A DNA stretch of 64,000 bases, from the NCBI GenBank assembly GCA_012455605.1, contig GCA_012455605.1_3618.1; one strand, written 5' to 3'. Positions 35,622 to 48,394 of the stretch are shown here, one piece after another; the stretch's first letter is position 1, and every line of letters starts with the position of its first letter. Origin of the DNA: a phage. The notes beneath the pieces are model-generated. The model was not told where the DNA came from, ran no database searches, and saw only the letters and a program-made list of their open reading frames with translations. Made by a program: the position numbers and the translations under genes.

Positions 35622-36383
35622 TCAATCCTCAACACAAGGTCTTGGATAGCCTCTGGATAACTTCCACTCAGTTAGTGACATCCCTCCGTAGAGACAGTTT
35701 ACTTCCCAAGACTTTCTTGCACAAACTGCCTCCCACCACGGATTTAGCCACTTCCTGTCGTTGAAGCATCTTAAGTTTCTTCCTTTGTTATCTCGTGCCC
35801 TCCAACAGGTATCTTTCTTAGACCAATCAATACCTGGCAGGATATTATTCTTGTGCGGGTTTGGAACTATCTTTAAAGCCTCTTCCGGGTTGGCTATTGA
35901 CCATTCAACCCTAGACTTAGCCTCTTCGAAAGTGTCAAAATCTCCCAACCTAACATTTACCCTATTTATCCTTCTACTTGCCCTCCACTTACCCTCTCTT
36001 TTCAGCCATACCACACCAGTCACTGTAGAGGTGTTATTGCTTTGCACATTTTCCAAGGCTCTCTTACAGTAGTTATCCCAAGGCTTCAACATTTGAAGGT
36101 TTTCTATCTTGTCTACAGGCACTCCGTTAGTAGAATTTTTCTTAGAGACGATATGATCGATATGCCAAGTATCTGTGACACATCCGTAAAACATGTCAAA
36201 AATTTCCCTATGTCTGCCACGTTTAACATTTGTCAGCTTATTGTACACTTGGAAATATCCAGTCTTTTTGTTGTAGTGTCCAGCCCTATTTCCATTCCTA
36301 CTGTAGCCAGGTTTCCAAAAGATTAGATCACCATCCTTGTACCAATAAGGATAGTAATCATTAAAAAAGAAATGTATCTTCAT
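35622..36383 (-). CDS. HNH homing endonuclease with AP2-like DNA-binding domain
   Basis: HIDHIVSKKNSTNG HNH motif plus WRASRRINRVNVRLGDFDTFEEA AP2-like segment. Confidence 0.65.
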   Translation of the reverse strand: MKIHFFFNDYYPYWYKDGDLIFWKPGYSRNGNRAGHYNKKTGYFQVYNKLTNVKRGRHREIFDMFYGCVTDTWHIDHIVSKKNSTNGVPVDKIENLQMLKPWDNYCKRALENVQSNNTSTVTGVVWLKREGKWRASRRINRVNVRLGDFDTFEEAKSRVEWSIANPEEALKIVPNPHKNNILPGIDWSKKDTCWRARDNKGRNLRCFNDRKWLNPWWEAVCARKSWEVNCLYGGMSLTEWKLSRGYPRPCVED

Positions 36384-37060: not shown

Positions 37061-38344
37061 TCATTCCAGAACCTCCCAAGTATCTGGGTTAACATTTCGG
37101 ACGCAGATACCGACAGGGAATTGGTAGTTGTTGTCTTCTGTCCTTGCTTGATATTTGAAGGTGACAAACTTGCCGATCATTTCCTGCATCCTGTCATAGC
37201 TACGCTCCTCGTGCGTGCCTTTCATCTTCATTTTAACAACAACACCTTCCTTGTCAACACAGATAAGAACACCTTCATCATTCTTATCTTTCTCAACGTC
37301 AATAACTTTCACCTCTGCGTCGTTGAACTTTTTCCATTTCAATGCTTCAGATGTTCGCTGACCATACTCATATTTACCACAGAAGTTACGCATAATGGTA
37401 CCTTCATATCCTTCAGACATAAATATACCAACAGACTCTTCGCACCGATCAACCGTATATGCAAGCTCTGCGTCAACAACCTTGATATGGTCAAGCATCA
37501 GAGTGGTAACGGTATCCTCTGCATCCATAAGATCCTTGCAGCGTCCAGACTCTGTTTCTGGATCCCACCACACCTTGTCGCTAGGAATATCAAAAATGTG
37601 GTACTCCAGATCGTAGCTACAGTACCCACCGTAACGCAAATCATCACGAACAGGCTCAACATCGACAGGAATATCTACCTTGTTGAAGTTTTTGTATGTT
37701 GATAAGCCTGCCTTAATTGCGGCATGACGGCGTTTTTTATCTGCCTCATAGTCTTTATCGATCTCGGCCTGAATCTCTTCCTGTGTGCGCCACCGTTTAG
37801 CAAGAGACACTATTTTCTGCAAAGGAAGACCATGAATGTATAGTTCCCCATCAAGTTGTTTAATCCCAGTGGTAGAATGGAAAGAACGAAGTTGCTCTAA
37901 AAGCTTTCCTTGAATAGGGTAGGACTTATTACCACGGGAAATAAATTTAGGCTCACCATTTTGGAAAACAACAAGCAGACGAAGGCCATCTAACTTACGC
38001 AAGATCCAGCAAGGTAATTTAAGTGCCTTGCCACGCTTCAGATAGTCATGCACCAGCATGGGTAAAAGGTCAACACCCTGCTCGCAATCTTCCATGTTTT
38101 CAACATACCCCAGACGGACTTGTTTTTCCCACTTGCTGATAGCCTCAAGCTCGGCCTGTTGCTCAGCTGTAGTCTCATTGGCACGACCTACGTTCTTAGG
38201 TGTGCATACCGTCTCTTTGTACTGCAATTTACCGTCAAGCTTGCCAAACTCTACGATAACCTTTTCGCCATCAGTGAATACTTTCCACTGTTGGTAGCTG
38301 CCATCTTTGTTCAGTGCGTACAGTGTTGTTTTGATTTGATGCAT
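37061..38344 (-). CDS. ATP-dependent DNA ligase (nucleotidyltransferase superfamily)
   Basis: motif I KLDG (ILRKLDGLR), DGELY, EGTIMR, KWKKF. Confidence 0.6.
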   Translation of the reverse strand: MHQIKTTLYALNKDGSYQQWKVFTDGEKVIVEFGKLDGKLQYKETVCTPKNVGRANETTAEQQAELEAISKWEKQVRLGYVENMEDCEQGVDLLPMLVHDYLKRGKALKLPCWILRKLDGLRLLVVFQNGEPKFISRGNKSYPIQGKLLEQLRSFHSTTGIKQLDGELYIHGLPLQKIVSLAKRWRTQEEIQAEIDKDYEADKKRRHAAIKAGLSTYKNFNKVDIPVDVEPVRDDLRYGGYCSYDLEYHIFDIPSDKVWWDPETESGRCKDLMDAEDTVTTLMLDHIKVVDAELAYTVDRCEESVGIFMSEGYEGTIMRNFCGKYEYGQRTSEALKWKKFNDAEVKVIDVEKDKNDEGVLICVDKEGVVVKMKMKGTHEERSYDRMQEMIGKFVTFKYQARTEDNNYQFPVGICVRNVNPDTWEVLE

Positions 38345-38613: not shown

Positions 38614-38938
38614 TGCAGTCCTCCTTCTGTAGTAGGTCTTTTATAGGATAAACAAGTAAGTGTGGATCGGAATAACGTATAGTCTTATTCTGCCACACTA
38701 TGAACTTAATTACAACTAAATTTACAACATCTTTATCTCCATGTAGTCCAACACACAGATTTGTCCATATTTTGTGGTTGAATACTTTGCTGTCGATGTA
38801 GATCTTAGTGTCAAACTTATCCTCTATCCTGCCTATGAGTTTAACCAACTCTTTCATCTGATCCCCAAACACAGCATCGTTTTCAAGATCTCTAGAGTGC
38901 TTGTACATAACTATCTGCCTCACTTGCATACTTTCCAC
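38600..38938 (-). CDS. hypothetical protein (112 aa)
   Basis: ORF. Confidence 0.4.
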   Translation of the reverse strand: MESMQVRQIVMYKHSRDLENDAVFGDQMKELVKLIGRIEDKFDTKIYIDSKVFNHKIWTNLCVGLHGDKDVVNLVVIKFIVWQNKTIRYSDPHLLVYPIKDLLQKEDCNAVI

Positions 38939-38971
38939 AACAAGTAAAGCCGGGTGATCCCGGCTATGTTG

Positions 38972-39685
38972 TTAAATATACTCTGTTACATCCTTGAAGC
39001 TTGAAGGCTTCATGATCTTACCTTTACTGTCAATGAATATGATAACTTTATTACCGTTGTAGAATTCTTCCTTAGCAACAAAACCTTCATATCGACCATC
39101 AAAGCGTCGCTCAAGATCTTTAATCTCCAACTCGATGAGTTGTTCAGCAGGCATATCTGCACTGGCACCGTGTGAATGCCGTAGATGGTTGACCCGTGCA
39201 AACTTGCTGTCATTCGATTTGAGAACCTTACGCATCATCCCGCACACATCGCCGCGAAGCTGGAACAGCAAAGCTGTTGACAACTCTGCTAAGCGGTAAG
39301 CAGACGCTCTTTGCTTAGAGGTGTTTTTCGCAGCGATCAGTGTATCATAGAACTCACCAATCTTGAACTTAATACCTCGTGGATTATCAAACAGGTTTGA
39401 CCACTTTTCGTGATTGTCATTAACAAGATAAGCGGCATAACTTGTGACAACATGAAGATCGCAGGCCTCTTTTAGCAAGTGATCTCCACCATCACCTTTC
39501 TCCAGCTCTTCCAAAACTTCATTGAACTCTTCCTCAATGAAGCTAAGCTGTAATTCGAATGGCGTGTATGATTTTTTCACCTTAGCTGCCACACGGTTCC
39601 AGTTTTCCACCCAGTTGGCAGACCAAAGGTAGTTTTCAGGCTGAGACAGTTTTTCCAAGTTGTCGATCAGTTTAGTATTCAGCAT
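38972..39685 (-). CDS. MazG-like nucleotide pyrophosphohydrolase (tentative)
   Basis: SFIEEEFNEVLEELEKGDGGDHLLKEACDL resembles the MazG/HisE EExxE...E..D metal-binding helix. Confidence 0.4.
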   Translation of the reverse strand: MLNTKLIDNLEKLSQPENYLWSANWVENWNRVAAKVKKSYTPFELQLSFIEEEFNEVLEELEKGDGGDHLLKEACDLHVVTSYAAYLVNDNHEKWSNLFDNPRGIKFKIGEFYDTLIAAKNTSKQRASAYRLAELSTALLFQLRGDVCGMMRKVLKSNDSKFARVNHLRHSHGASADMPAEQLIELEIKDLERRFDGRYEGFVAKEEFYNGNKVIIFIDSKGKIMKPSSFKDVTEYI

Positions 39686-39698
39686 TAAAGGTCTCCTT

Positions 39699-40460
39699 TT
39701 AAAGTTCCATAAAGTTTTCTACAGTTTCAATAAATACTTTATCAGAGAAAGCGTCAACAGCACCGTTAAACCATACAGGGATCCCGCGATCCTCATATTG
39801 ATAAAGGTCGCTACGTGAAATGCCACTTCCATCTGCACTCTGCGAATCATACTTGTTTACAATCAGCAGTTTTGTGCCTTTACAAGTAGCAGGAAACAAT
39901 TCCCAGTTAAAATTAATAACTGTGTTAGAACAACCTACCAGGATCACCATATCATTGCTTGTGAGAGATGTCAACAGGTCATACATGTCTGTATACTTAG
40001 GAGCAACCTCACCGAAGAACACTACATTGGGCTTAACCCAGGTATACTTGCCTGTATCTACCTCCGTGTATCCGATATTTTTAATTACATCATTACCTTC
40101 AGCATCTTCGTAGGTGATTTCAGGCAAATACCCGTGGACATGTAAAATATCTTCATGTTTTACACCAGCACGCTCCAGCAAATCATCTACATTGGTGGTA
40201 AGGTTGATCACACGACCAGACCAGCGGGAATACCACTCAGCGATCCGAAGATGTGCAAGGTTAGGATCAACACTGCCCAGAGCTACACGACGTGCATTGT
40301 AAAAGTCATGCACCTTATAGTAGTTCTTGGCAAAGGTGTGGATGTTGCACACCTCATCGATGCTGAAATTCTCCCACATTGCAGTGCTACCAGATCGGAA
40401 AGTGGGAATACCAGATTCAGCGCTCAAACCAGCACCGGAGATAATAATCAGTCGTCGCAT
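39699..40460 (-). CDS. Sir2-family NAD-dependent protein deacylase / ADP-ribosyltransferase
   Basis: ISGAGLSAESGIPTFR (sirtuin Rossmann motif), TTNVDDL, VHG. Confidence 0.8.
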   Translation of the reverse strand: MRRLIIISGAGLSAESGIPTFRSGSTAMWENFSIDEVCNIHTFAKNYYKVHDFYNARRVALGSVDPNLAHLRIAEWYSRWSGRVINLTTNVDDLLERAGVKHEDILHVHGYLPEITYEDAEGNDVIKNIGYTEVDTGKYTWVKPNVVFFGEVAPKYTDMYDLLTSLTSNDMVILVGCSNTVINFNWELFPATCKGTKLLIVNKYDSQSADGSGISRSDLYQYEDRGIPVWFNGAVDAFSDKVFIETVENFMEL

Positions 40461-40468
40461 AAGTGTCC

Positions 40469-40819
40469 TCAGTAGATGTTTTGTTTAATCTCTATTCCAA
40501 ACTTTTTAAACGAGTCAGCTGCAAGCATGAATTTACGAGCCGCTGATGGATTAGAAGTATGTACGAAAATCTTCACGTTGTCAACCACGGGAGGCTTACC
40601 GAATACAAATTTTTCCTCCAACATGGATAGGCAATCATATCCTTCGAATACTTCTCCTAGGTCGTTGTCCATATGCCACTCAGAAACGCGTCTGTAGAGC
40701 TTTCCCTTATCGTTAATAAAATCCATAAACTCGGAGGAATTCTTCAGCCAAACAGCGTCTGGGAGTCCATAATTTGACGGATCTCTCAAATCATCCAGCC
40801 ACACAATCAACTTCTTCAT
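40469..40819 (-). CDS. hypothetical protein with receiver/Rossmann-like N-terminus (MKKLIVWLDDLRDP)
   Basis: ORF; ATGA overlap with the RNA ligase stop; start placed at the internal ATG. Confidence 0.4.
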   Translation of the reverse strand: MKKLIVWLDDLRDPSNYGLPDAVWLKNSSEFMDFINDKGKLYRRVSEWHMDNDLGEVFEGYDCLSMLEEKFVFGKPPVVDNVKIFVHTSNPSAARKFMLAADSFKKFGIEIKQNIY

Positions 40820-41751
40820 TGCATATAGTCCTCGTTGTGGAAATAGTGGTCGAGTATCTCCCTGCGTTCCTGCTCCAGTAGGCAGTTCCACACATCTTCT
40901 GTGTAATTGCTACGAATGAAGTTTACCATGCCGTAAAACTCTTCGTCAACACGTTTAAAGATATCATCATCCCAAATCTTCCAAGCTTTACCCCTCATTA
41001 CGGCCTTCCGTGCCAGATAGTATGGAGACTTGATCTTCAGCTGCAGATCATAAGGGTAGTAAGGCTTACGAATCATATACCCTTCACCTCTTGTTTCTGC
41101 AGCTAATTCTTTTGCATAGCTGAACGGAATTTCACGCACAGTGTGAGGACGTTTTGCACCAAGGTATTTGGCAATCCCATCTAAAGCTGCCTCTGGGAGC
41201 ATTATTCCAGAATCATTATATCTGCAACCTATCAAATATGCGCCATGATCTTCCTGAACAATATGCGGATCTGAAGGGTGACAAATTTCAAACATGAATG
41301 TCATGTTTTCATTGCCCATAACCTTCTTGATAAGATCTAAATTACCACATTGCTCCTGGATGGTTTTCTTTGCGAGGTTACAATATGGGGAATCAAGAGA
41401 TCCGGTTGTTGAGAACAATAGTTCACCTTTATGAGATGATACCACACCGAGGAATCCGTTCTTTTTCTCTACCGCCGTCACAAGCTTATTGTCAGGCAGG
41501 TTGGTGGAATTTTCTCCCAAGTTAAACACTTTTGTGAAGGGCCATGCCACAACATTCCCTTCATTACCGACAACAATGCCTCGGCACTCCAGTAATCGAG
41601 GAGACAAATGCCATAAGTTGTTGTAGAATACTTTTCTGGCATATTTATAGATCTTTAACCCAAGATCTGGGTAATATCTGCTGGTTACAAGACCTTTGTC
41701 AACTAGGTCGTCTGCATTAAAATACTTCATCATACGTTCCTCATTTGTCAT
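40816..41751 (-). CDS. RNA ligase-like nucleotidyltransferase (tentative)
   Basis: EKKNGF (motif I Lys), EGYMIRKP (motif IV), LKIKSPYY (motif V). Confidence 0.5.
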   Translation of the reverse strand: MTNEERMMKYFNADDLVDKGLVTSRYYPDLGLKIYKYARKVFYNNLWHLSPRLLECRGIVVGNEGNVVAWPFTKVFNLGENSTNLPDNKLVTAVEKKNGFLGVVSSHKGELLFSTTGSLDSPYCNLAKKTIQEQCGNLDLIKKVMGNENMTFMFEICHPSDPHIVQEDHGAYLIGCRYNDSGIMLPEAALDGIAKYLGAKRPHTVREIPFSYAKELAAETRGEGYMIRKPYYPYDLQLKIKSPYYLARKAVMRGKAWKIWDDDIFKRVDEEFYGMVNFIRSNYTEDVWNCLLEQERREILDHYFHNEDYMQ

Positions 41752-41794
41752 TTTGTCCCTTTATCCTGCCACACAAATAACCCAGTGTCAACAC

Positions 41795-41823
41795 TTGAAA
41801 TTAACAAAACAGTTAGGTATACT
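41795..41823 (+). promoter_or_regulatory. sigma70-like promoter (TTGAAA-17-TATACT)
   Basis: in the divergent intergenic region upstream of the kinase gene. Confidence 0.5.
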
Positions 41824-41851
41824 ATCATTGAAATTAAAACGGAGGGTTACT

Positions 41852-42259
41852 ATGTCTAAAATGCTATATATCGTGCGTGGTCTACCAGGGTCTGGCAAAT
41901 CAACACTGGCAAATGCGCTATCTTTAGAAGGTCTGTACCCACATTTTGAGAACGACATGTTCTGGTACGACGATGACGGCAATTACAACTGGGATGCAAG
42001 TAAAGTAACACTTGCAGCAAAATGGTGCAAAGATAACGTAGAAGATATGATGCGTATGGGATACGACCGTATCGTGGTAAGTAATACGTTTACAAAAGAA
42101 AAATACGTGCAAAAATATATTGACATGGCAATCAGCTATGGGTATAGTTATACCGTAATCGTGGTTGAAAACCGCCACGGTAATAAAAGCATTCATGCTT
42201 CAGACGAGGTTGTGGATCGTATGGAGCGCCAGCTTAAAAACTGCATCAAACTTAAATGA
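41852..42259 (+). CDS. polynucleotide 5-prime-kinase-like P-loop kinase
   Basis: MLYIVRGLPGSGKST resembles the T4 Pnk kinase N-terminus (ILTIGCPGSGKST); start at ATG after RBS ggaggg. Confidence 0.55.
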   Translation: MSKMLYIVRGLPGSGKSTLANALSLEGLYPHFENDMFWYDDDGNYNWDASKVTLAAKWCKDNVEDMMRMGYDRIVVSNTFTKEKYVQKYIDMAISYGYSYTVIVVENRHGNKSIHASDEVVDRMERQLKNCIKLK

Positions 42260-42266
42260 GGAATGT

Positions 42267-42821
42267 ATGAAATACTTTGTAACAAGCGACACACACTTTC
42301 TCCACCAGCGGGTCATGGAGTTTGATTCATGTCAAAAACACAGATCTCAATATGATCACAATCTTGACAGTATGAATGCGGGAATCATCACCAAGTGGAA
42401 CTCTGTTGTGTCACCTGCAGACACTGTGTTCCACCTGGGAGATATTGCGTGCACTAATGATAAGAATATCAACAACTTACTTCCAGATATTCTAAATATG
42501 TTGAACGGACATATTATTCTTGTTCGTGGCAACCATGACACAAGGACGACTGTCAGAATTATGAAAGAGTTCGGTCATGAGGTTGTAGATTATTACGAGC
42601 TTCGCCACAACAAGAATTTGATCTGTATGAGCCATTACCAGTTTGCAAAGTGGAACAGAAAGCCTCACGGATCAGTCCAACTGTTCGGTCATGCTCACGG
42701 AACCACACAACAGTTGTTTGGCAGACAGCTTGATGTCGGTTGGGATGTGTGGGGGAGACTCTTACCATTAGAAGAGGCATACCGTATTGCAATGAGTTTT
42801 GCTATTGACAGCGGGGAGTAA
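42267..42821 (+). CDS. calcineurin-like metallophosphoesterase
   Basis: SDTHF, GDIA, GNHD and GHAHG metallophosphatase motifs. Confidence 0.65.
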   Translation: MKYFVTSDTHFLHQRVMEFDSCQKHRSQYDHNLDSMNAGIITKWNSVVSPADTVFHLGDIACTNDKNINNLLPDILNMLNGHIILVRGNHDTRTTVRIMKEFGHEVVDYYELRHNKNLICMSHYQFAKWNRKPHGSVQLFGHAHGTTQQLFGRQLDVGWDVWGRLLPLEEAYRIAMSFAIDSGE

Positions 42822-43219: not shown

Positions 43220-43294
43220 ACCAGTAAAAACTTAAATATCTGTACTATAAGGATTCGTATGTTTTATGTTCGCCATGGAACGGATACTATTAAC

Positions 43295-43353
43295 TGTCCG
43301 TAATACGGACACTACTGTCCGTCACGCGGACACATCTGCCCGTAATACGGACA
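43295..43353. promoter_or_regulatory. three tandem palindromic operator-like sites at 21 bp spacing
   Basis: TGTCCGTA-A-TACGGACA (43295-43311), TGTCCGT-cac-GCGGACA (43316-43332), TGCCCGTA-A-TACGGACA (43337-43353). Confidence 0.55.
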
Positions 43354-43489
43354 CATAAAGAATATAACTAAAATAACTAAATAATAAAAAATAAAAGATC
43401 TAGTACTTATGGTACTAAGTACATATACTTAACTTATGTAGAATATACTAGATCCTAAGTACCATGTTTTAAATTTATTACTTACTATG

Positions 43490-43740
43490 GGCAGTGTCGG
43501 CCCTTCATTGGCACTCGCCTACGAGGGGCGAGATGCCGGGCCTCCTTGGTGCACACAATAACAGAAGTGCACACATGCAGGTCTGTTAACATGTGTGGGA
43601 GCGAAGCTATAGCGCAGGCCAAAGGCCGAGCACTGATGTGGACCACCGACGAAAGCTTGCCAGCGCCGTAAGGAGTCGGTTGAGAGTCTCCCGCGCGAGC
43701 TTGGATGAAGTTTATGTGTGGAAACTGACAAGAAGGTCCC
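43490..43740 (+). ncRNA. GC-rich structured element, candidate non-coding RNA or regulatory structure (strand unknown)
   Basis: local GC spike in an AT-rich genome; nested hairpins GGCA-CTCGCC...GGCGAG-TGCC, GTGCACACA repeated, CACATG...CATGTG, GGCC-aaa-GGCC; only a low-complexity antisense ORF. Confidence 0.3.
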
Positions 43741-43857
43741 TAAATCGCTCCACAGCTATATAAACTATACCAGGTAATGCAATCGCACCAGTTTGATAGA
43801 AAAGCTCGTTACAAAGCGATACAGTGAGTTTTTCTATAACTTGAAGAGGAGGCAGCT

Positions 43858-45733: not shown

Positions 45734-45805
45734 GCCCTGTTAGCTTAGTGGATAAAGCAGCGGCCTTCTAAGCCGTTGACACTGGTTCGAGTCCAGTACG
45801 GGGTG
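45734..45805 (+). tRNA. tRNA-Arg (anticodon TCT)
   Basis: hand-folded cloverleaf: acceptor GCCCTGT/ACGGGGT, anticodon arm GCGGC-cttCTaa-GCCGT, T-arm ACTGG-ttcgagt-CCAGT, encoded CCA. Confidence 0.75.
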
Positions 45806-45812
45806 CCAAATT

Positions 45813-45896
45813 GGGGAGTTATCCCGTAGAGGTAGCGGTGTAGACTGTAAATCTATTGTCATTGCGACTCGGGTGGTTCGACTCCACCACTCCCCA
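45813..45896 (+). tRNA. tRNA-Tyr (anticodon GTA)
   Basis: acceptor GGGGAGT/ACTCCCC, anticodon arm with CTGTAAATCT as in E. coli tRNA-Tyr, long variable arm, encoded CCA. Confidence 0.7.
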
Positions 45897-46013
45897 CCAA
45901 ATTTATATTTTTAGATGCATAAATAATACAGATAATGGCATTGATATTTATCGTCGTTTATACTAGTCACTAACTGCTCGAAAATCAGTGTCATTATCAG
46001 TATAATTTATAAA

Positions 46014-46101
46014 GGAGGGTAGGGAGCAATGGTGCTCAAGCGGTCTTGAAAACCGTCCCGTTGAGGATGACTCGATGATGGTTCGATTCCATTACTCTCC
46101 G
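46014..46101 (+). tRNA. tRNA-Ser (anticodon TGA)
   Basis: acceptor GGAGGGT/ACTCTCC, anticodon arm GCGGT-cttgaaa-ACCGT, long variable arm, discriminator G, encoded CCA. Confidence 0.7.
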
Positions 46102-46202
46102 CCACATTGTTGACCTTGTAATTAAGCGAAAGCCGGAAGCAGAACCGGATTATCAAATGTTACAGTCGTCATCGCCGACTAGCAACATGGTCAACATACT
46201 GA

Positions 46203-46299
46203 GCTAGGTAAGCCCTTTGGCAAGGGCGAGGATTTTTAATCCTGAAAATAGACGAGGTAGTCGTTGAATACATAGGTGGTTCGATTCCATCACCTAGCA
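46203..46299 (+). tRNA. aberrant tRNA-like gene (Leu-type body, non-canonical anticodon loop; possible pseudo-tRNA)
   Basis: acceptor GCTAGGT/ACCTAGC, D-arm GCCC-tttggcaa-GGGC, T-arm GGTGG-ttcgatt-CCATC, discriminator A; anticodon region AGGAT-tttta-ATCCT has a 5-nt loop (or UUU in the alternative fold); over-long variable region; no encoded CCA. Confidence 0.4.
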
Positions 46300-46306
46300 C
46301 CTTTTT

Positions 46307-46379
46307 GCTGATGTAGCACAATCGGTAGTGCAATTGATTTGTAATCAATAGGTTGTAGGTTCAAGTCCTGCCATCAGCA
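46307..46379 (+). tRNA. tRNA-Thr (anticodon TGT)
   Basis: acceptor GCTGATG/CATCAGC, anticodon arm ATTGA-tttgtaa-TCAAT, encoded CCA. Confidence 0.75.
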
Positions 46380-46383
46380 CCAA

Positions 46384-46455
46384 GGCCCTGTAGCTGGAAG
46401 GTTCAAGCAAGCGACTCATAATCGCCAGACGGTGGTTCAATTCCACCCAGGGCCA
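46384..46455 (+). tRNA. tRNA-Met or Ile2 (anticodon CAT)
   Basis: acceptor GGCCCTG/CAGGGCC, anticodon loop ctCATaa, T-arm GGTGG-ttcaatt-CCACC, encoded CCA. Confidence 0.7.
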
Positions 46456-46469
46456 CCAAATAATAAATA

Positions 46470-46543
46470 CTCCGCGTAGCTCAGCTTGGTAGAGCGCCTG
46501 ATTTGGGATCAGGAGGTCGAGTGTTCGAATCACTCCGTGGAGA
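46470..46543 (+). tRNA. tRNA-Pro (anticodon TGG)
   Basis: acceptor CTCCGCG/CGTGGAG, anticodon arm CCTGA-tttggga-TCAGG, encoded CCA. Confidence 0.75.
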
Positions 46544-46592
46544 CCACTTTCAGTTATACTTTAAACATATACAAACAAAAGGAACCTTTAAA

Positions 46593-47650: not shown

Positions 47651-48075
47651 TGTCTAAGATTTACGGACCGTGTTCTGAAAAGCAGAAGATGATCCTCGAA
47701 AACGATGCAGATATTTTGGTAATCGGCGGTGCCGCAGGGTCTGGCAAGTCGTTCCTCTTGCAGTTGATGCCACTTAAAATTATTGATGACCCCCACAGCT
47801 CTGTGGTTATGTTCCGAAGAACAACCCCACAGTTGGAAGGTGAGGGTGGACTATGGCCTAAAGCAGTAGCTATTTATAGTGATCTGCCTGAAAACATTAA
47901 GCCAAAGTTCAGAGAGAAGGATCATAAGTTCATTTTTCCACGGTTTGATCCGAACACTGGCAAGTGGGATAGAAGCAAAAAGGGAGCTGTTGTAAAATAC
48001 TGCCACATGGAGTATGTACAAGATAAGCTTAACCATCAGGGGCTTGAGTACACCATGGTTTGCTTCGATGAGGGT
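47650..48075 (+). CDS. terL: terminase large subunit, exon 1 (ATPase N-terminus: Walker A to Walker B)
   Basis: Walker A GGAAGSGKS; ends with YTMVCFDEG (Walker B-like) just before the stop; downstream ORF supplies the rest of the protein. Confidence 0.7.
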
Positions 48076-48394
48076 TAATTTGTAGCTCTCGTAAAACCTC
48101 CCTAATTGCGGGGAAATCTTTATTATTGACACCACCAGCCTGTTATGGTAACATAATAGAGGCTTCGAAGAGAGATCGAAGGTATGGTAACAGTGTGTTA
48201 ATTTAGATAATCCGCAGCGAAGCATCCGAGAGGATGAACGTTCAACGACTAGTCGAAAGACGTAGAATCAAGCGATTCGAAACGGGAGGGTAAGCGGTTG
48301 TTGTCGCTTATAAGATATAGTCTGGTCTGCATGGAGACATGCAGCTGCCTGAAAATGGCGGGGCAAGACTAGCGACCTTGCCCGAACATGAACG
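48076..48394 (+). mobile_element. group I self-splicing intron (IA2-like, no ORF) in the terminase large subunit gene
   Basis: core elements present in canonical order: P AATTGCGGGGAAA (48104-48116), Q AATCCGCAGC (48209-48218), R GTTCAACGACTAGTCGAAAG (48240-48259), S AAGATATAGTC (48312-48322); P1 pairing of exon GAGGGU (48070-48075) with intron GCUCUC (48085-48090) including U-G at the splice site; 3-prime boundary inferred from frame (alternatives to about 48430). Confidence 0.8.

What the first reader, a model, noticed from the sequence alone, without database searches (positions are those of the whole stretch)
38972..40819. Sir2-family enzyme in an operon with a MazG-like pyrophosphohydrolase and a small receiver-like protein
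A clear sirtuin-fold protein (GAGLSAESGIPTFR) is translationally coupled upstream to a 116 aa protein (MKKLIVWLDDLRDP...) that starts on the RNA ligase stop, and is followed by a MazG-like protein. Sir2 domains in bacteria are frequent NAD-consuming defence effectors; a phage copy beside nucleotide-hydrolysing and RNA-repair genes suggests NAD or nucleotide-signal manipulation or anti-defence, none of which is established here.
Basis: inference. Interest (0 to 1): 0.7.

Follow-up and report, generated by a model that had tools for sequence, protein, structure and literature searches.

The report
Phage RNA-repair operon containing a sirtuin
An rV5-like E. coli phage carries a sirtuin inside a cluster of RNA-repair genes, an arrangement already described in the literature and predicted, but never tested, to use NAD+ to clean up cut tRNAs.

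Summary
On the minus strand, 38972-40819 holds three tightly packed genes. They are a 116-aa cREC receiver-fold protein (PF20274), whose ATG overlaps the RNA ligase stop codon, a 253-aa Sir2, and a 237-aa all-alpha NTP pyrophosphohydrolase of the MazG/HisE/dimeric-dUTPase type. A terminator-like hairpin follows. Together with the upstream Rnl1-like RNA ligase and a divergent P-loop kinase and calcineurin-like phosphoesterase, they form an RNA heal-and-seal cassette.

The window is 99% identical to Vequintavirus JES2013. This exact neighbourhood, "prototyped by Escherichia phage V5", was described by Iyer et al. 2022. They predicted that the sirtuin acts like KptA/Tpt1 and removes RNA 2'-phosphates using NAD+. 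I found no experimental test of that prediction.

The Sir2 is CobB/SIRT5-like, not a defence NADase. It keeps the catalytic His and the class III Tyr/Arg pair, but has lost the zinc-ribbon cysteines and reads TTNVD where canonical sirtuins read TQNxD.

My locus survey adds one nuance. The Sir2-to-MazG-like adjacency is specific to Vequintavirus. In relatives the MazG-like gene follows the DNA ligase, and in Phapecoctavirus-like genomes Sir2 lies about 27 kb from the repair block.

Verdict: already known as a prediction. The enzyme's function remains open and can be tested directly.

The parts
40816..41751 (-). Rnl1-like (T4 RnlA-type) ATP-dependent RNA ligase, 311 aa. An alternative start at 41730 is used in the JES2013 annotation.
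   Evidence: PF09511 E 5.9e-15; phrog_562 E 2.2e-66; TIGR02308 E 3.6e-10, below its cutoff.
40469..40819 (-). cREC (cyclic-phosphate processing receiver) protein, 116 aa. Its start codon overlaps the ligase stop codon (ATGA).
39699..40460 (-). Zn-less class III-like sirtuin, 253 aa. Key motifs: G9AG, F21R22, Y54/R57, T88TNVD92, catalytic H109, F148GE.
   Evidence: PF02146 E 7e-28. Best PDB matches are E. coli CobB and SIRT5. Motifs are conserved in 120 and in 80 homologues. No PADLOC hit. Below every NCBIfam CobB cutoff.
38972..39685 (-). All-alpha NTP pyrophosphohydrolase (MazG/HisE/dimeric-dUTPase superfamily) with a conserved C-terminal beta-hairpin module (GRY...GKIMKP), 237 aa.
38948..38965 (-). 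Terminator-like hairpin (AGCCGGGATCACCCGGCT followed by TTACTTGTTG) that closes the four-gene unit.
   Evidence: scan and sequence. The Murica record annotates a terminator under the matching region.
41846..42259 (+). Divergently transcribed P-loop kinase, 137 aa, probably a polynucleotide 5'-kinase (GLPGSGKST, Asp35).
   Evidence: AAA_33 E 3.8e-10; phrog_505 polynucleotide kinase E 3.7e-10. It stays beside the RNA ligase in relatives.
42267..42821 (+). Calcineurin-like metallophosphoesterase, 184 aa, a candidate 3'-end healing enzyme.
   Evidence: Metallophos and Metallophos_2; phrog_547; PDB 1xm7 E 5.5e-11. Conserved within the block.
37061..38344 (-). ATP-dependent DNA ligase, 427 aa, downstream member of the same syntenic block.
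   Evidence: PF01068 and PF14743. It lies beside the NTP pyrophosphohydrolase or the Sir2 in nearly all related loci.

Best explanation
The three genes belong to a phage RNA (most likely tRNA) heal-and-seal cassette. [quoted passage not shown]

Inferred steps:
1. The P-loop kinase phosphorylates the 5'-OH.
2. The cREC protein opens or removes the cyclic phosphate, alone or together with the calcineurin-like phosphoesterase. cREC has a receiver fold with the DD/D/T acidic pocket and an invariant His.
3. The Rnl1-like ligase seals the break.
4. The Zn-less sirtuin uses NAD+ to deal with a phosphate left on the RNA. Its most likely reaction is Tpt1/KptA-like. The RNA 2'-phosphate attacks C1'' of NAD+ and releases nicotinamide. 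[quoted passage not shown]
5. The all-alpha pyrophosphohydrolase either degrades that ADP-ribose by-product, the role Nudix enzymes play in jumbo-phage versions, or simply sanitises the nucleotide pool.

What is shown: gene order, translational coupling, domain identities, residue conservation and conservation of the neighbourhood. What is inferred: every enzymatic step. My sub-confidences are about 0.8 that the cassette repairs RNA, about 0.3 that Sir2 removes RNA 2'-phosphate, and about 0.25 that the pyrophosphohydrolase works on Sir2 products.
For: The operon anatomy is an ATGA overlap, 8- and 13-nt gaps and a terminator hairpin. The domains are assigned.

The same gene set, with rearrangements, occurs in Mydovirus-like phages and in 13 of 80 IMG/VR Sir2 loci. 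A further 28 of 80 Sir2 loci, the T5-like ones, place the same Zn-less Sir2 about 1 kb from a HAD_SAK_2 RNA-repair phosphatase (PF18143, 5e-20). The subclade therefore sits next to at least two unrelated RNA-end phosphoesterases. A third neighbourhood, with 2H, Nudix-cREC and PIN, is reported in PMC9503650.

cREC stays with the RNA ligase, kinase and phosphoesterase across Vequintavirinae and Stephanstirmvirinae.

The Sir2 subclade shows signs of a functional shift. In 60 of 80 loci it has lost the Zn-ribbon cysteines and changed Q to T in TQNxD, while keeping the His and the class III anion-binding Tyr/Arg pair.

The sirtuin and Tpt1 mechanisms are chemically parallel: attack on NAD+ C1'' followed by attack from the ribose 2''-OH. 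This is established enzymology, and the Tpt1 mechanism is summarised in PMC11417386. The prediction itself is published (PMC9503650, section 3.7.3).
Against: - I found no experimental data for any of the proteins.
- Sir2 keeps the full deacylase signature, including the FGE loop, and is acidic (pI 4.9, clade median 5.1). That is unusual for an RNA-binding enzyme.
- The cassette already has a metallophosphoesterase. Rnl1-type ligases do not need a 2'-phosphate (my own knowledge of T4 Pnkp/Rnl1), so a 2'-phosphotransferase may not be required.
- In Phapecoctavirus-like genomes the repair block lacks Sir2, which lies about 27 kb away. In my survey, T5-like Sir2 loci had no RNA ligase within 10 kb.
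- 39 of 80 Sir2 loci have no detectable RNA-repair neighbour.
- Much of the adjacency may be inherited synteny among related large myoviruses rather than repeated selection.
- The pyrophosphohydrolase tracks the DNA ligase more closely than it tracks Sir2.
Confidence: 0.45

Rival explanations
1. The Sir2 is an ordinary NAD+-dependent protein deacylase of the CobB/SIRT5 type. It would remove acetyl or succinyl groups from host or phage proteins to reprogramme metabolism. On this view it sits in the nucleic-acid-metabolism gene block only through shared ancestry.
For: Its best relatives are CobB and SIRT5. GAGxS, FR, the Y54/R57 desuccinylase pair, N90, D92, H109 and the FGE substrate loop are conserved. 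The protein is acidic. Sir2 is not linked to the repair block in Phapecoctavirus-like genomes, and 39 of 80 loci lack RNA-repair neighbours. A deacetylase role was proposed for the Vibrio-phage homologue (PMC5107563).
Against: The Zn-ribbon cysteines that shape the peptide-binding small domain are lost, and Q is replaced by T in the NAD pocket, in 60 of 80 loci. Scores fall far below all NCBIfam CobB equivalog cutoffs. The subclade is repeatedly next to RNA-end phosphoesterases of unrelated folds (PMC9503650).
Confidence: 0.3
2. Sir2, cREC and the pyrophosphohydrolase would manipulate NAD+ or nucleotide second messengers such as cADPR variants or cyclic oligonucleotides, blunting signalling-based defences instead of repairing RNA.
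For: Its authors also predict that cREC linearises cyclic ADPr derivatives (PMC7824862, PMC9503650). Pyrophosphohydrolases can destroy nucleotide signals. Some Sir2 loci have NadR-type kinase-like (AAA_28) neighbours, and phi92 carries NAD-salvage genes beside its repair block.
Against: There is no similarity to defence-type Sir2 NADases. Consuming NAD+ would harm the phage. cREC's most constant partners are an RNA ligase, a kinase and a phosphoesterase. None of the six proteins matched any PADLOC defence model except weak P-loop hits for the kinase; PADLOC holds no counter-defence families, so known signal-degrading phage families were not tested.
Confidence: 0.12
3. The 237-aa protein is a stand-alone house-cleaning (d)NTP pyrophosphatase, for example a dUTPase or dCTPase that supplies dUMP to the phage ThyX. 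It would serve DNA replication and have no functional link to Sir2. This rival concerns that gene only and is compatible with the RNA-repair reading of the other genes.
Against: In Vequintavirus it is 13 nt downstream of Sir2, inside the same terminator-bounded unit. Its counts in phage records, broken down by taxon, nearly match those of cREC: 325 against 348 records, with very similar breakdowns. A Nudix pyrophosphatase occupies the analogous place in jumbo-phage sirtuin neighbourhoods (PMC9503650).
Confidence: 0.4

Closest known systems
Type-2 sirtuin-centred phage RNA-repair neighbourhood of Iyer, Burroughs, Anantharaman and Aravind 2022 (Viruses 14:1977, PMC9503650, section 3.7.3)
   Same: The gene set is identical: sirtuin, T4-like tRNA ligase, cREC, nucleotide kinase, MazG-superfamily pyrophosphatase and calcineurin-like phosphoesterase. 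The paper names Escherichia phage V5 as the prototype, and the window is a Vequintavirus 99% identical to JES2013.
   Different: Nothing substantive differs. My survey adds that the direct Sir2-to-pyrophosphatase adjacency and the four-gene terminator-bounded unit are specific to Vequintavirus, and that the Sir2 subclade is defined by joint loss of the Zn ribbon and a Q-to-T change.
Fungal/plant tRNA ligase pathway: Trl1 (ligase, kinase and 2H cyclic phosphodiesterase) plus Tpt1/KptA
   Same: The proposed logic is the same: open the 2',3'-cyclic phosphate, phosphorylate the 5'-OH, seal with an Rnl1/Trl1-family ligase (both fall in PF09511), then remove the junction 2'-phosphate with NAD+.
   Different: No 2H domain and no Tpt1/KptA-family protein is present. 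cREC (receiver fold) and Sir2 (Rossmann fold) would be non-homologous replacements. The enzymes are separate small proteins, and no activity has been shown.
T4 Pnkp plus Rnl1, and bacterial Pnkp/Hen1, tRNA repair
   Same: All combine a P-loop 5'-kinase, a 3'-end phosphoesterase and an ATP-dependent RNA ligase to counter anticodon nucleases. As in Clostridium thermocellum Pnkp, the phosphoesterase is calcineurin-like.
   Different: There is no HAD phosphatase domain and no Hen1 methyltransferase. The extra cREC, Sir2 and pyrophosphohydrolase genes have no counterpart in those systems.
Class III sirtuins (E. coli CobB, human SIRT5)
   Same: The sequence is closest to these enzymes. The NAD-binding motifs, the catalytic His and the Tyr-x-x-Arg pair that binds negatively charged acyl groups are all present.
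   Different: The four Zn-binding cysteines are absent, TQNxD has become TTNVD, scores fall below the CobB equivalog cutoffs, and the subclade is restricted to phages.
Defence-associated Sir2 NADases (ThsA, DSR1/2, SIR2-HerA, SPARSA)
   Same: They share the Sir2 superfamily fold and the use of NAD+.
   Different: No PADLOC model matches. The protein has a single domain with no sensor or partner domains, and it is encoded by a lytic phage.

Membership tests
Sir2 family (PF02146) | Profile score above the Pfam gathering threshold | tested here: met
   98.2 bits against a cutoff of 24, E 7e-28.
Sir2 family (PF02146) | NAD-binding GAGxS and xFR motifs, N and D of the TQN(I/V)D motif, and the catalytic His | tested here: met
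   G9AG, F21R22, N90, D92 and H109 are present and invariant in the 30-sequence alignment A4, and are kept across 120 homologues and 80 loci. The Q of TQNxD is replaced by T88.
Sir2 family (PF02146) | Four-Cys zinc ribbon in the small domain | tested here: not met
   There are no cysteines between H109-G110 and K143. The same holds for 47 of 80 related loci, and another 13 of the TTN(V/I)D loci have only 1-2 Cys. This was also noted for Vibrio-phage homologues in PMC5107563.
Class III sirtuins / CobB equivalog | Tyr-x-x-Arg acidic-acyl pocket | tested here: met
   Y54 and R57 align with SIRT5 Y102/R105 and with the matching CobB residues. They are conserved in 70 of 80 loci.
Class III sirtuins / CobB equivalog | NCBIfam equivalog or subfamily score cutoffs | tested here: not met
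   The best score is 122.6 bits against a cutoff of 243 (NF001753). All seven models are below cutoff.
Defence-associated Sir2 NADases | Match to PADLOC Sir2 effector models | tested here: not met
   No PADLOC family at E<=0.01.
cREC (PF20274) | Profile score above threshold and a receiver fold | tested here: met
cREC (PF20274) | Conserved receiver-type aspartates, and no histidine kinase partner but linkage to an RNA ligase | tested here: met
   D9/D10, D51/D53 and T88 are conserved. cREC lies beside or near the RNA ligase in Vequintavirus, Mydovirus, Phapecoctavirus and phi92.
cREC (PF20274) | Cyclic-phosphate phosphodiesterase activity | not testable with these tools
   The activity is only predicted (PMC7824862). 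I found no experimental paper.
All-alpha NTP pyrophosphohydrolases (MazG/HisE/dimeric dUTPase) | Pfam match for the protein itself | tested here: not met
   No Pfam or NCBIfam family for the 237-aa protein.
All-alpha NTP pyrophosphohydrolases (MazG/HisE/dimeric dUTPase) | Four-helix-bundle fold with the ExxE...ExxD metal-binding motif, and family-level profile links | tested here: met
Tpt1/KptA RNA 2'-phosphotransferases | Homology to the KptA/Tpt1 fold (PF01885) | tested here: not met
   None of the nine proteins scanned against Pfam, which include all six cassette proteins, matches that family. Any similarity would be functional only.
Tpt1/KptA RNA 2'-phosphotransferases | [quoted passage not shown] | not testable with these tools
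   This needs biochemistry or tpt1-delta complementation.
Iyer et al. 2022 type-2 sirtuin RNA-repair neighbourhood | Sirtuin together with a T4-like ligase, cREC, kinase, MazG-superfamily enzyme and calcineurin-like phosphoesterase | tested here: met
   All six lie within 38972-42821.

The most novel reading that the evidence does not exclude
The Zn-less, TTNVD sirtuin subclade may have left protein deacylation altogether and act on nucleic-acid phosphates. It occurs in about 2% of deposited phage genomes (988 of 50,697 records). On this reading it would be a sirtuin-fold, NAD+-dependent RNA 2'-phosphotransferase, or an enzyme that removes terminal phosphate, working with cREC as a receiver-fold cyclic phosphodiesterase. 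That would give both folds new enzymatic activities and define a non-homologous replacement of the Trl1-CPD/Tpt1 pathway in phages. The idea is published as a prediction (PMC9503650) but has not been demonstrated.
Probability: 0.3. Interest if true: 0.7.

Novelty: already known. Interest (0 to 1): 0.33.

Why it matters
If the prediction holds, two very well-studied folds, sirtuin and receiver domain, gain new catalytic roles in RNA repair. Phages would then have a second, NAD+-dependent route for undoing tRNA cleavage by host defences. This bears on why NAD+ depletion is such an effective defence and on why many of these phages carry NAD+ salvage genes.

As a scan result, however, the locus is not a discovery. 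The genes are annotated in RefSeq, cREC is a Pfam family, and this exact neighbourhood in rV5-like phages has been described and interpreted in print. What remains is a clear and tractable experimental question.

Tried and rejected
- Defence-type Sir2 NADase: rejected, because no PADLOC model matches.
- Pairwise searches of solved structures for the 237-aa protein, cREC, the RNA ligase and the kinase found nothing useful. Profiles and fold searches were needed instead.
- I looked for experimental work on phage Sir2 or cREC with six literature searches. Only computational papers turned up. NARP3 (PMC13464706) and the aRES/phosphatase preprint concern other genes.
- I tested whether a hypothetical 217-aa ORF upstream of the Phapecoctavirus Sir2 is the MazG-like homologue. 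It is not: tblastn found no hit.
- Burroughs and Aravind 2016 (PMC5062991) is not held in the library.
- The afdb50 fold library was unavailable.
- The search for related loci with the broad 60-sequence alignment failed for lack of a conserved stretch. A narrower alignment worked.
- I considered a role in healing tRNA 3' ends pyrophosphorylated by toxSAS/CapRel-type toxins, with the pyrophosphohydrolase acting first and Sir2 or a phosphatase second. This is pure speculation with no supporting data, so I did not adopt it.

Full report
**What the window is.** The window comes from an rV5-like myovirus. The 2.9-kb stretch 38900-41800 is 99.1% identical to Escherichia phage JES2013 (Vequintavirus). 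It matches 121 phage records at 90% identity or more. RefSeq already annotates the genes as RNA ligase, hypothetical protein, Sir2 and nucleotide pyrophosphohydrolase.

**Checking the observation.** Four minus-strand ORFs run head to tail:
- RNA ligase, 41751..40816, 311 aa.
- A 116-aa protein, 40819..40469.
- Sir2, 40460..39699, 253 aa.
- A 237-aa protein, 39685..38972.

The 116-aa ATG overlaps the ligase TGA as ATGA. The next two junctions are gaps of 8 and 13 nt. A GC-rich hairpin followed by a T-run lies at 38965..38948, directly after the last stop codon. On the opposite strand, 94 bp upstream of the ligase, a 137-aa P-loop kinase (41846-42259) and a 184-aa calcineurin-like phosphoesterase (42267-42821) are transcribed divergently.

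**The Sir2.**
- It scores 98 bits on PF02146.
- It is closest to E. coli CobB and human SIRT5.
- It matches no PADLOC defence model.
- It falls far below the NCBIfam CobB cutoffs.
- Across 120 homologues, the GAGxS and FR motifs, the class III Tyr/Arg pair (Y54, R57), N90, D92, the catalytic H109 and the FGE loop are conserved. There is no zinc-ribbon cysteine quartet, and the canonical TQNxD reads TTNVD.
- In 80 IMG/VR loci these two changes go together. Sixty loci have TTN(V/I)D, and none of these has the four cysteines (47 have none, 13 have one or two). Sixteen of the 19 TQNxD versions, mostly the most distant relatives and many from contigs above 140 kb, keep them.
- The loss of zinc binding in phage Sir2 was already noted by Skliros et al. 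2016 (PMC5107563).
- The protein is acidic, with pI 4.9.

**Genomic context.**
- The Sir2 subclade occurs in 988 phage records, cREC in 348 and the pyrophosphohydrolase in 325. The last two have nearly identical taxon breakdowns.
- Mydovirus-like phages have this order: phosphoesterase, RNA ligase, cREC, kinase, Sir2, DNA ligase, then the pyrophosphohydrolase.
- Phapecoctavirus and phi92 have cREC, phosphoesterase, RNA ligase, kinase, DNA ligase and the pyrophosphohydrolase, with Sir2 about 27 kb away on the same contigs.
- T5-like phages pair Sir2 with a HAD_SAK_2 RNA-repair phosphatase (PF18143, 5e-20) and have no cREC or RNA ligase nearby.
- Of 80 Sir2 loci, 13 are V5-type, 28 are T5-type and 39 have neither kind of neighbour. 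Some of the 39 have NadR-type kinase-like, metallophosphatase or DprA/SLOG-like neighbours.
- The pyrophosphohydrolase is most constantly found next to the ATP-dependent DNA ligase.
- The four-gene unit seen here, and the direct Sir2-to-pyrophosphohydrolase junction, are therefore a Vequintavirus-specific arrangement of a broader syntenic block.

[quoted passage not shown] They propose that the sirtuin removes 2'-phosphates as KptA does, and that the associated enzymes open the cyclic phosphate or process ADPr>P. Six searches found no experimental follow-up.

**Mechanism.** The best-supported reading is an RNA heal-and-seal cassette; I put this at about 0.8. The kinase heals the 5' end, cREC and/or the metallophosphoesterase heal the 3' end, and the Rnl1-like ligase seals the break.

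The Sir2 step is the uncertain one; I put it at about 0.3. In its favour:
- The subclade recurs next to RNA-end phosphoesterases of unrelated folds.
- It is tightly embedded in the operon here.
- The Zn loss and the Q-to-T change suggest a shift in function.
- Sirtuin and Tpt1 chemistry are closely parallel.
- An anion-binding Tyr/Arg pair is retained.

Against it:
- The deacylase signature is intact.
- The protein is acidic.
- A phosphoesterase that could make 2'-phosphate removal unnecessary is already present.
- Sir2 is not linked to the block in Stephanstirmvirinae.
- T5-like phages have no ligase nearby.
- Inherited synteny may explain much of the adjacency.

The main rivals are a conventional protein deacylase (0.3) and NAD or signal manipulation (0.12). 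For the 237-aa gene alone, an independent dUTPase-like house-cleaning role (0.4) is also possible. That last rival is supported by the absence of any annotated dUTPase in the stretches of JES2013 that I listed, in a genome that encodes ThyX and ribonucleotide reductases.

**Verdict.** The locus is already known, both as annotation and as a published prediction, so it is not a new discovery from this scan. The biochemical question it poses remains open, is interesting and can be tested directly.

Noticed in passing
window 48066-48344 (+): A group I catalytic intron (Rfam RF00028, 84 bits, E 6e-20). By offset from the JES2013 annotation it lies inside what should be the terminase large subunit gene.
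   Followed up: no
window 45734-46546 (+): A cluster of seven tRNA calls about 3.5 kb from the RNA-repair cassette. One is an odd 99-nt tRNA-like element with a four-base anticodon call (46203-46301; Rfam tRNA 35.5 bits). Here the JES2013 RefSeq record annotates only four tRNAs. Phage tRNAs and tRNA repair may be complementary ways to counter anticodon nucleases.
   Followed up: partly
window 35622-36383 (-): A 253-aa ORF with a weak AP2-domain hit. It lies between the endolysin and a small ORF, where JES2013 has no gene, and is probably a homing-endonuclease insertion.
   Followed up: partly
window 41752-41845, and the GC-skew minimum near 42 kb: A divergent promoter region between the RNA ligase operon (minus strand) and the kinase/phosphoesterase genes (plus strand). 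It coincides with the switch of coding strand and the cumulative GC-skew minimum. An ORF-free gap of about 640 bp follows the HTH 'replication initiation' gene at 43220-43857.
   Followed up: no
Related records: MN850597 (isim), UniProt A0A7H0XDZ2, NC_052661 gp198, NC_048627 gp118: Annotations have slipped onto neighbouring genes. The pyrophosphohydrolase is labelled 'Sir2-like' in some records. cREC is labelled 'RNA ligase and tail attachment protein' in phage ukendt. The HAD_SAK_2 phosphatase of SP15 is labelled Sir2.
   Followed up: partly
GenBank MG0656xx 'Campylobacter phage' records: About 18-25 unannotated records named Campylobacter phage are 96-99% identical to this E. coli rV5-like phage. 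The host labels are probably wrong, or the samples were contaminated.
   Followed up: no
L008 (phage phi92) 1-1456: In phi92, a nicotinamide phosphoribosyltransferase-like gene and a PRPP-synthetase-like gene lie directly beside the cREC/phosphoesterase/RNA-ligase/kinase block. This hints at a link between NAD+ supply and the repair block.
   Followed up: no
L002 4001-4777 and 4777-6081, and about 12 further loci: In Mydovirus-like phages the Sir2 stop codon overlaps the start of the ATP-dependent DNA ligase. There Sir2 is translationally coupled to a DNA ligase and not to the MazG-like gene.
   Followed up: partly
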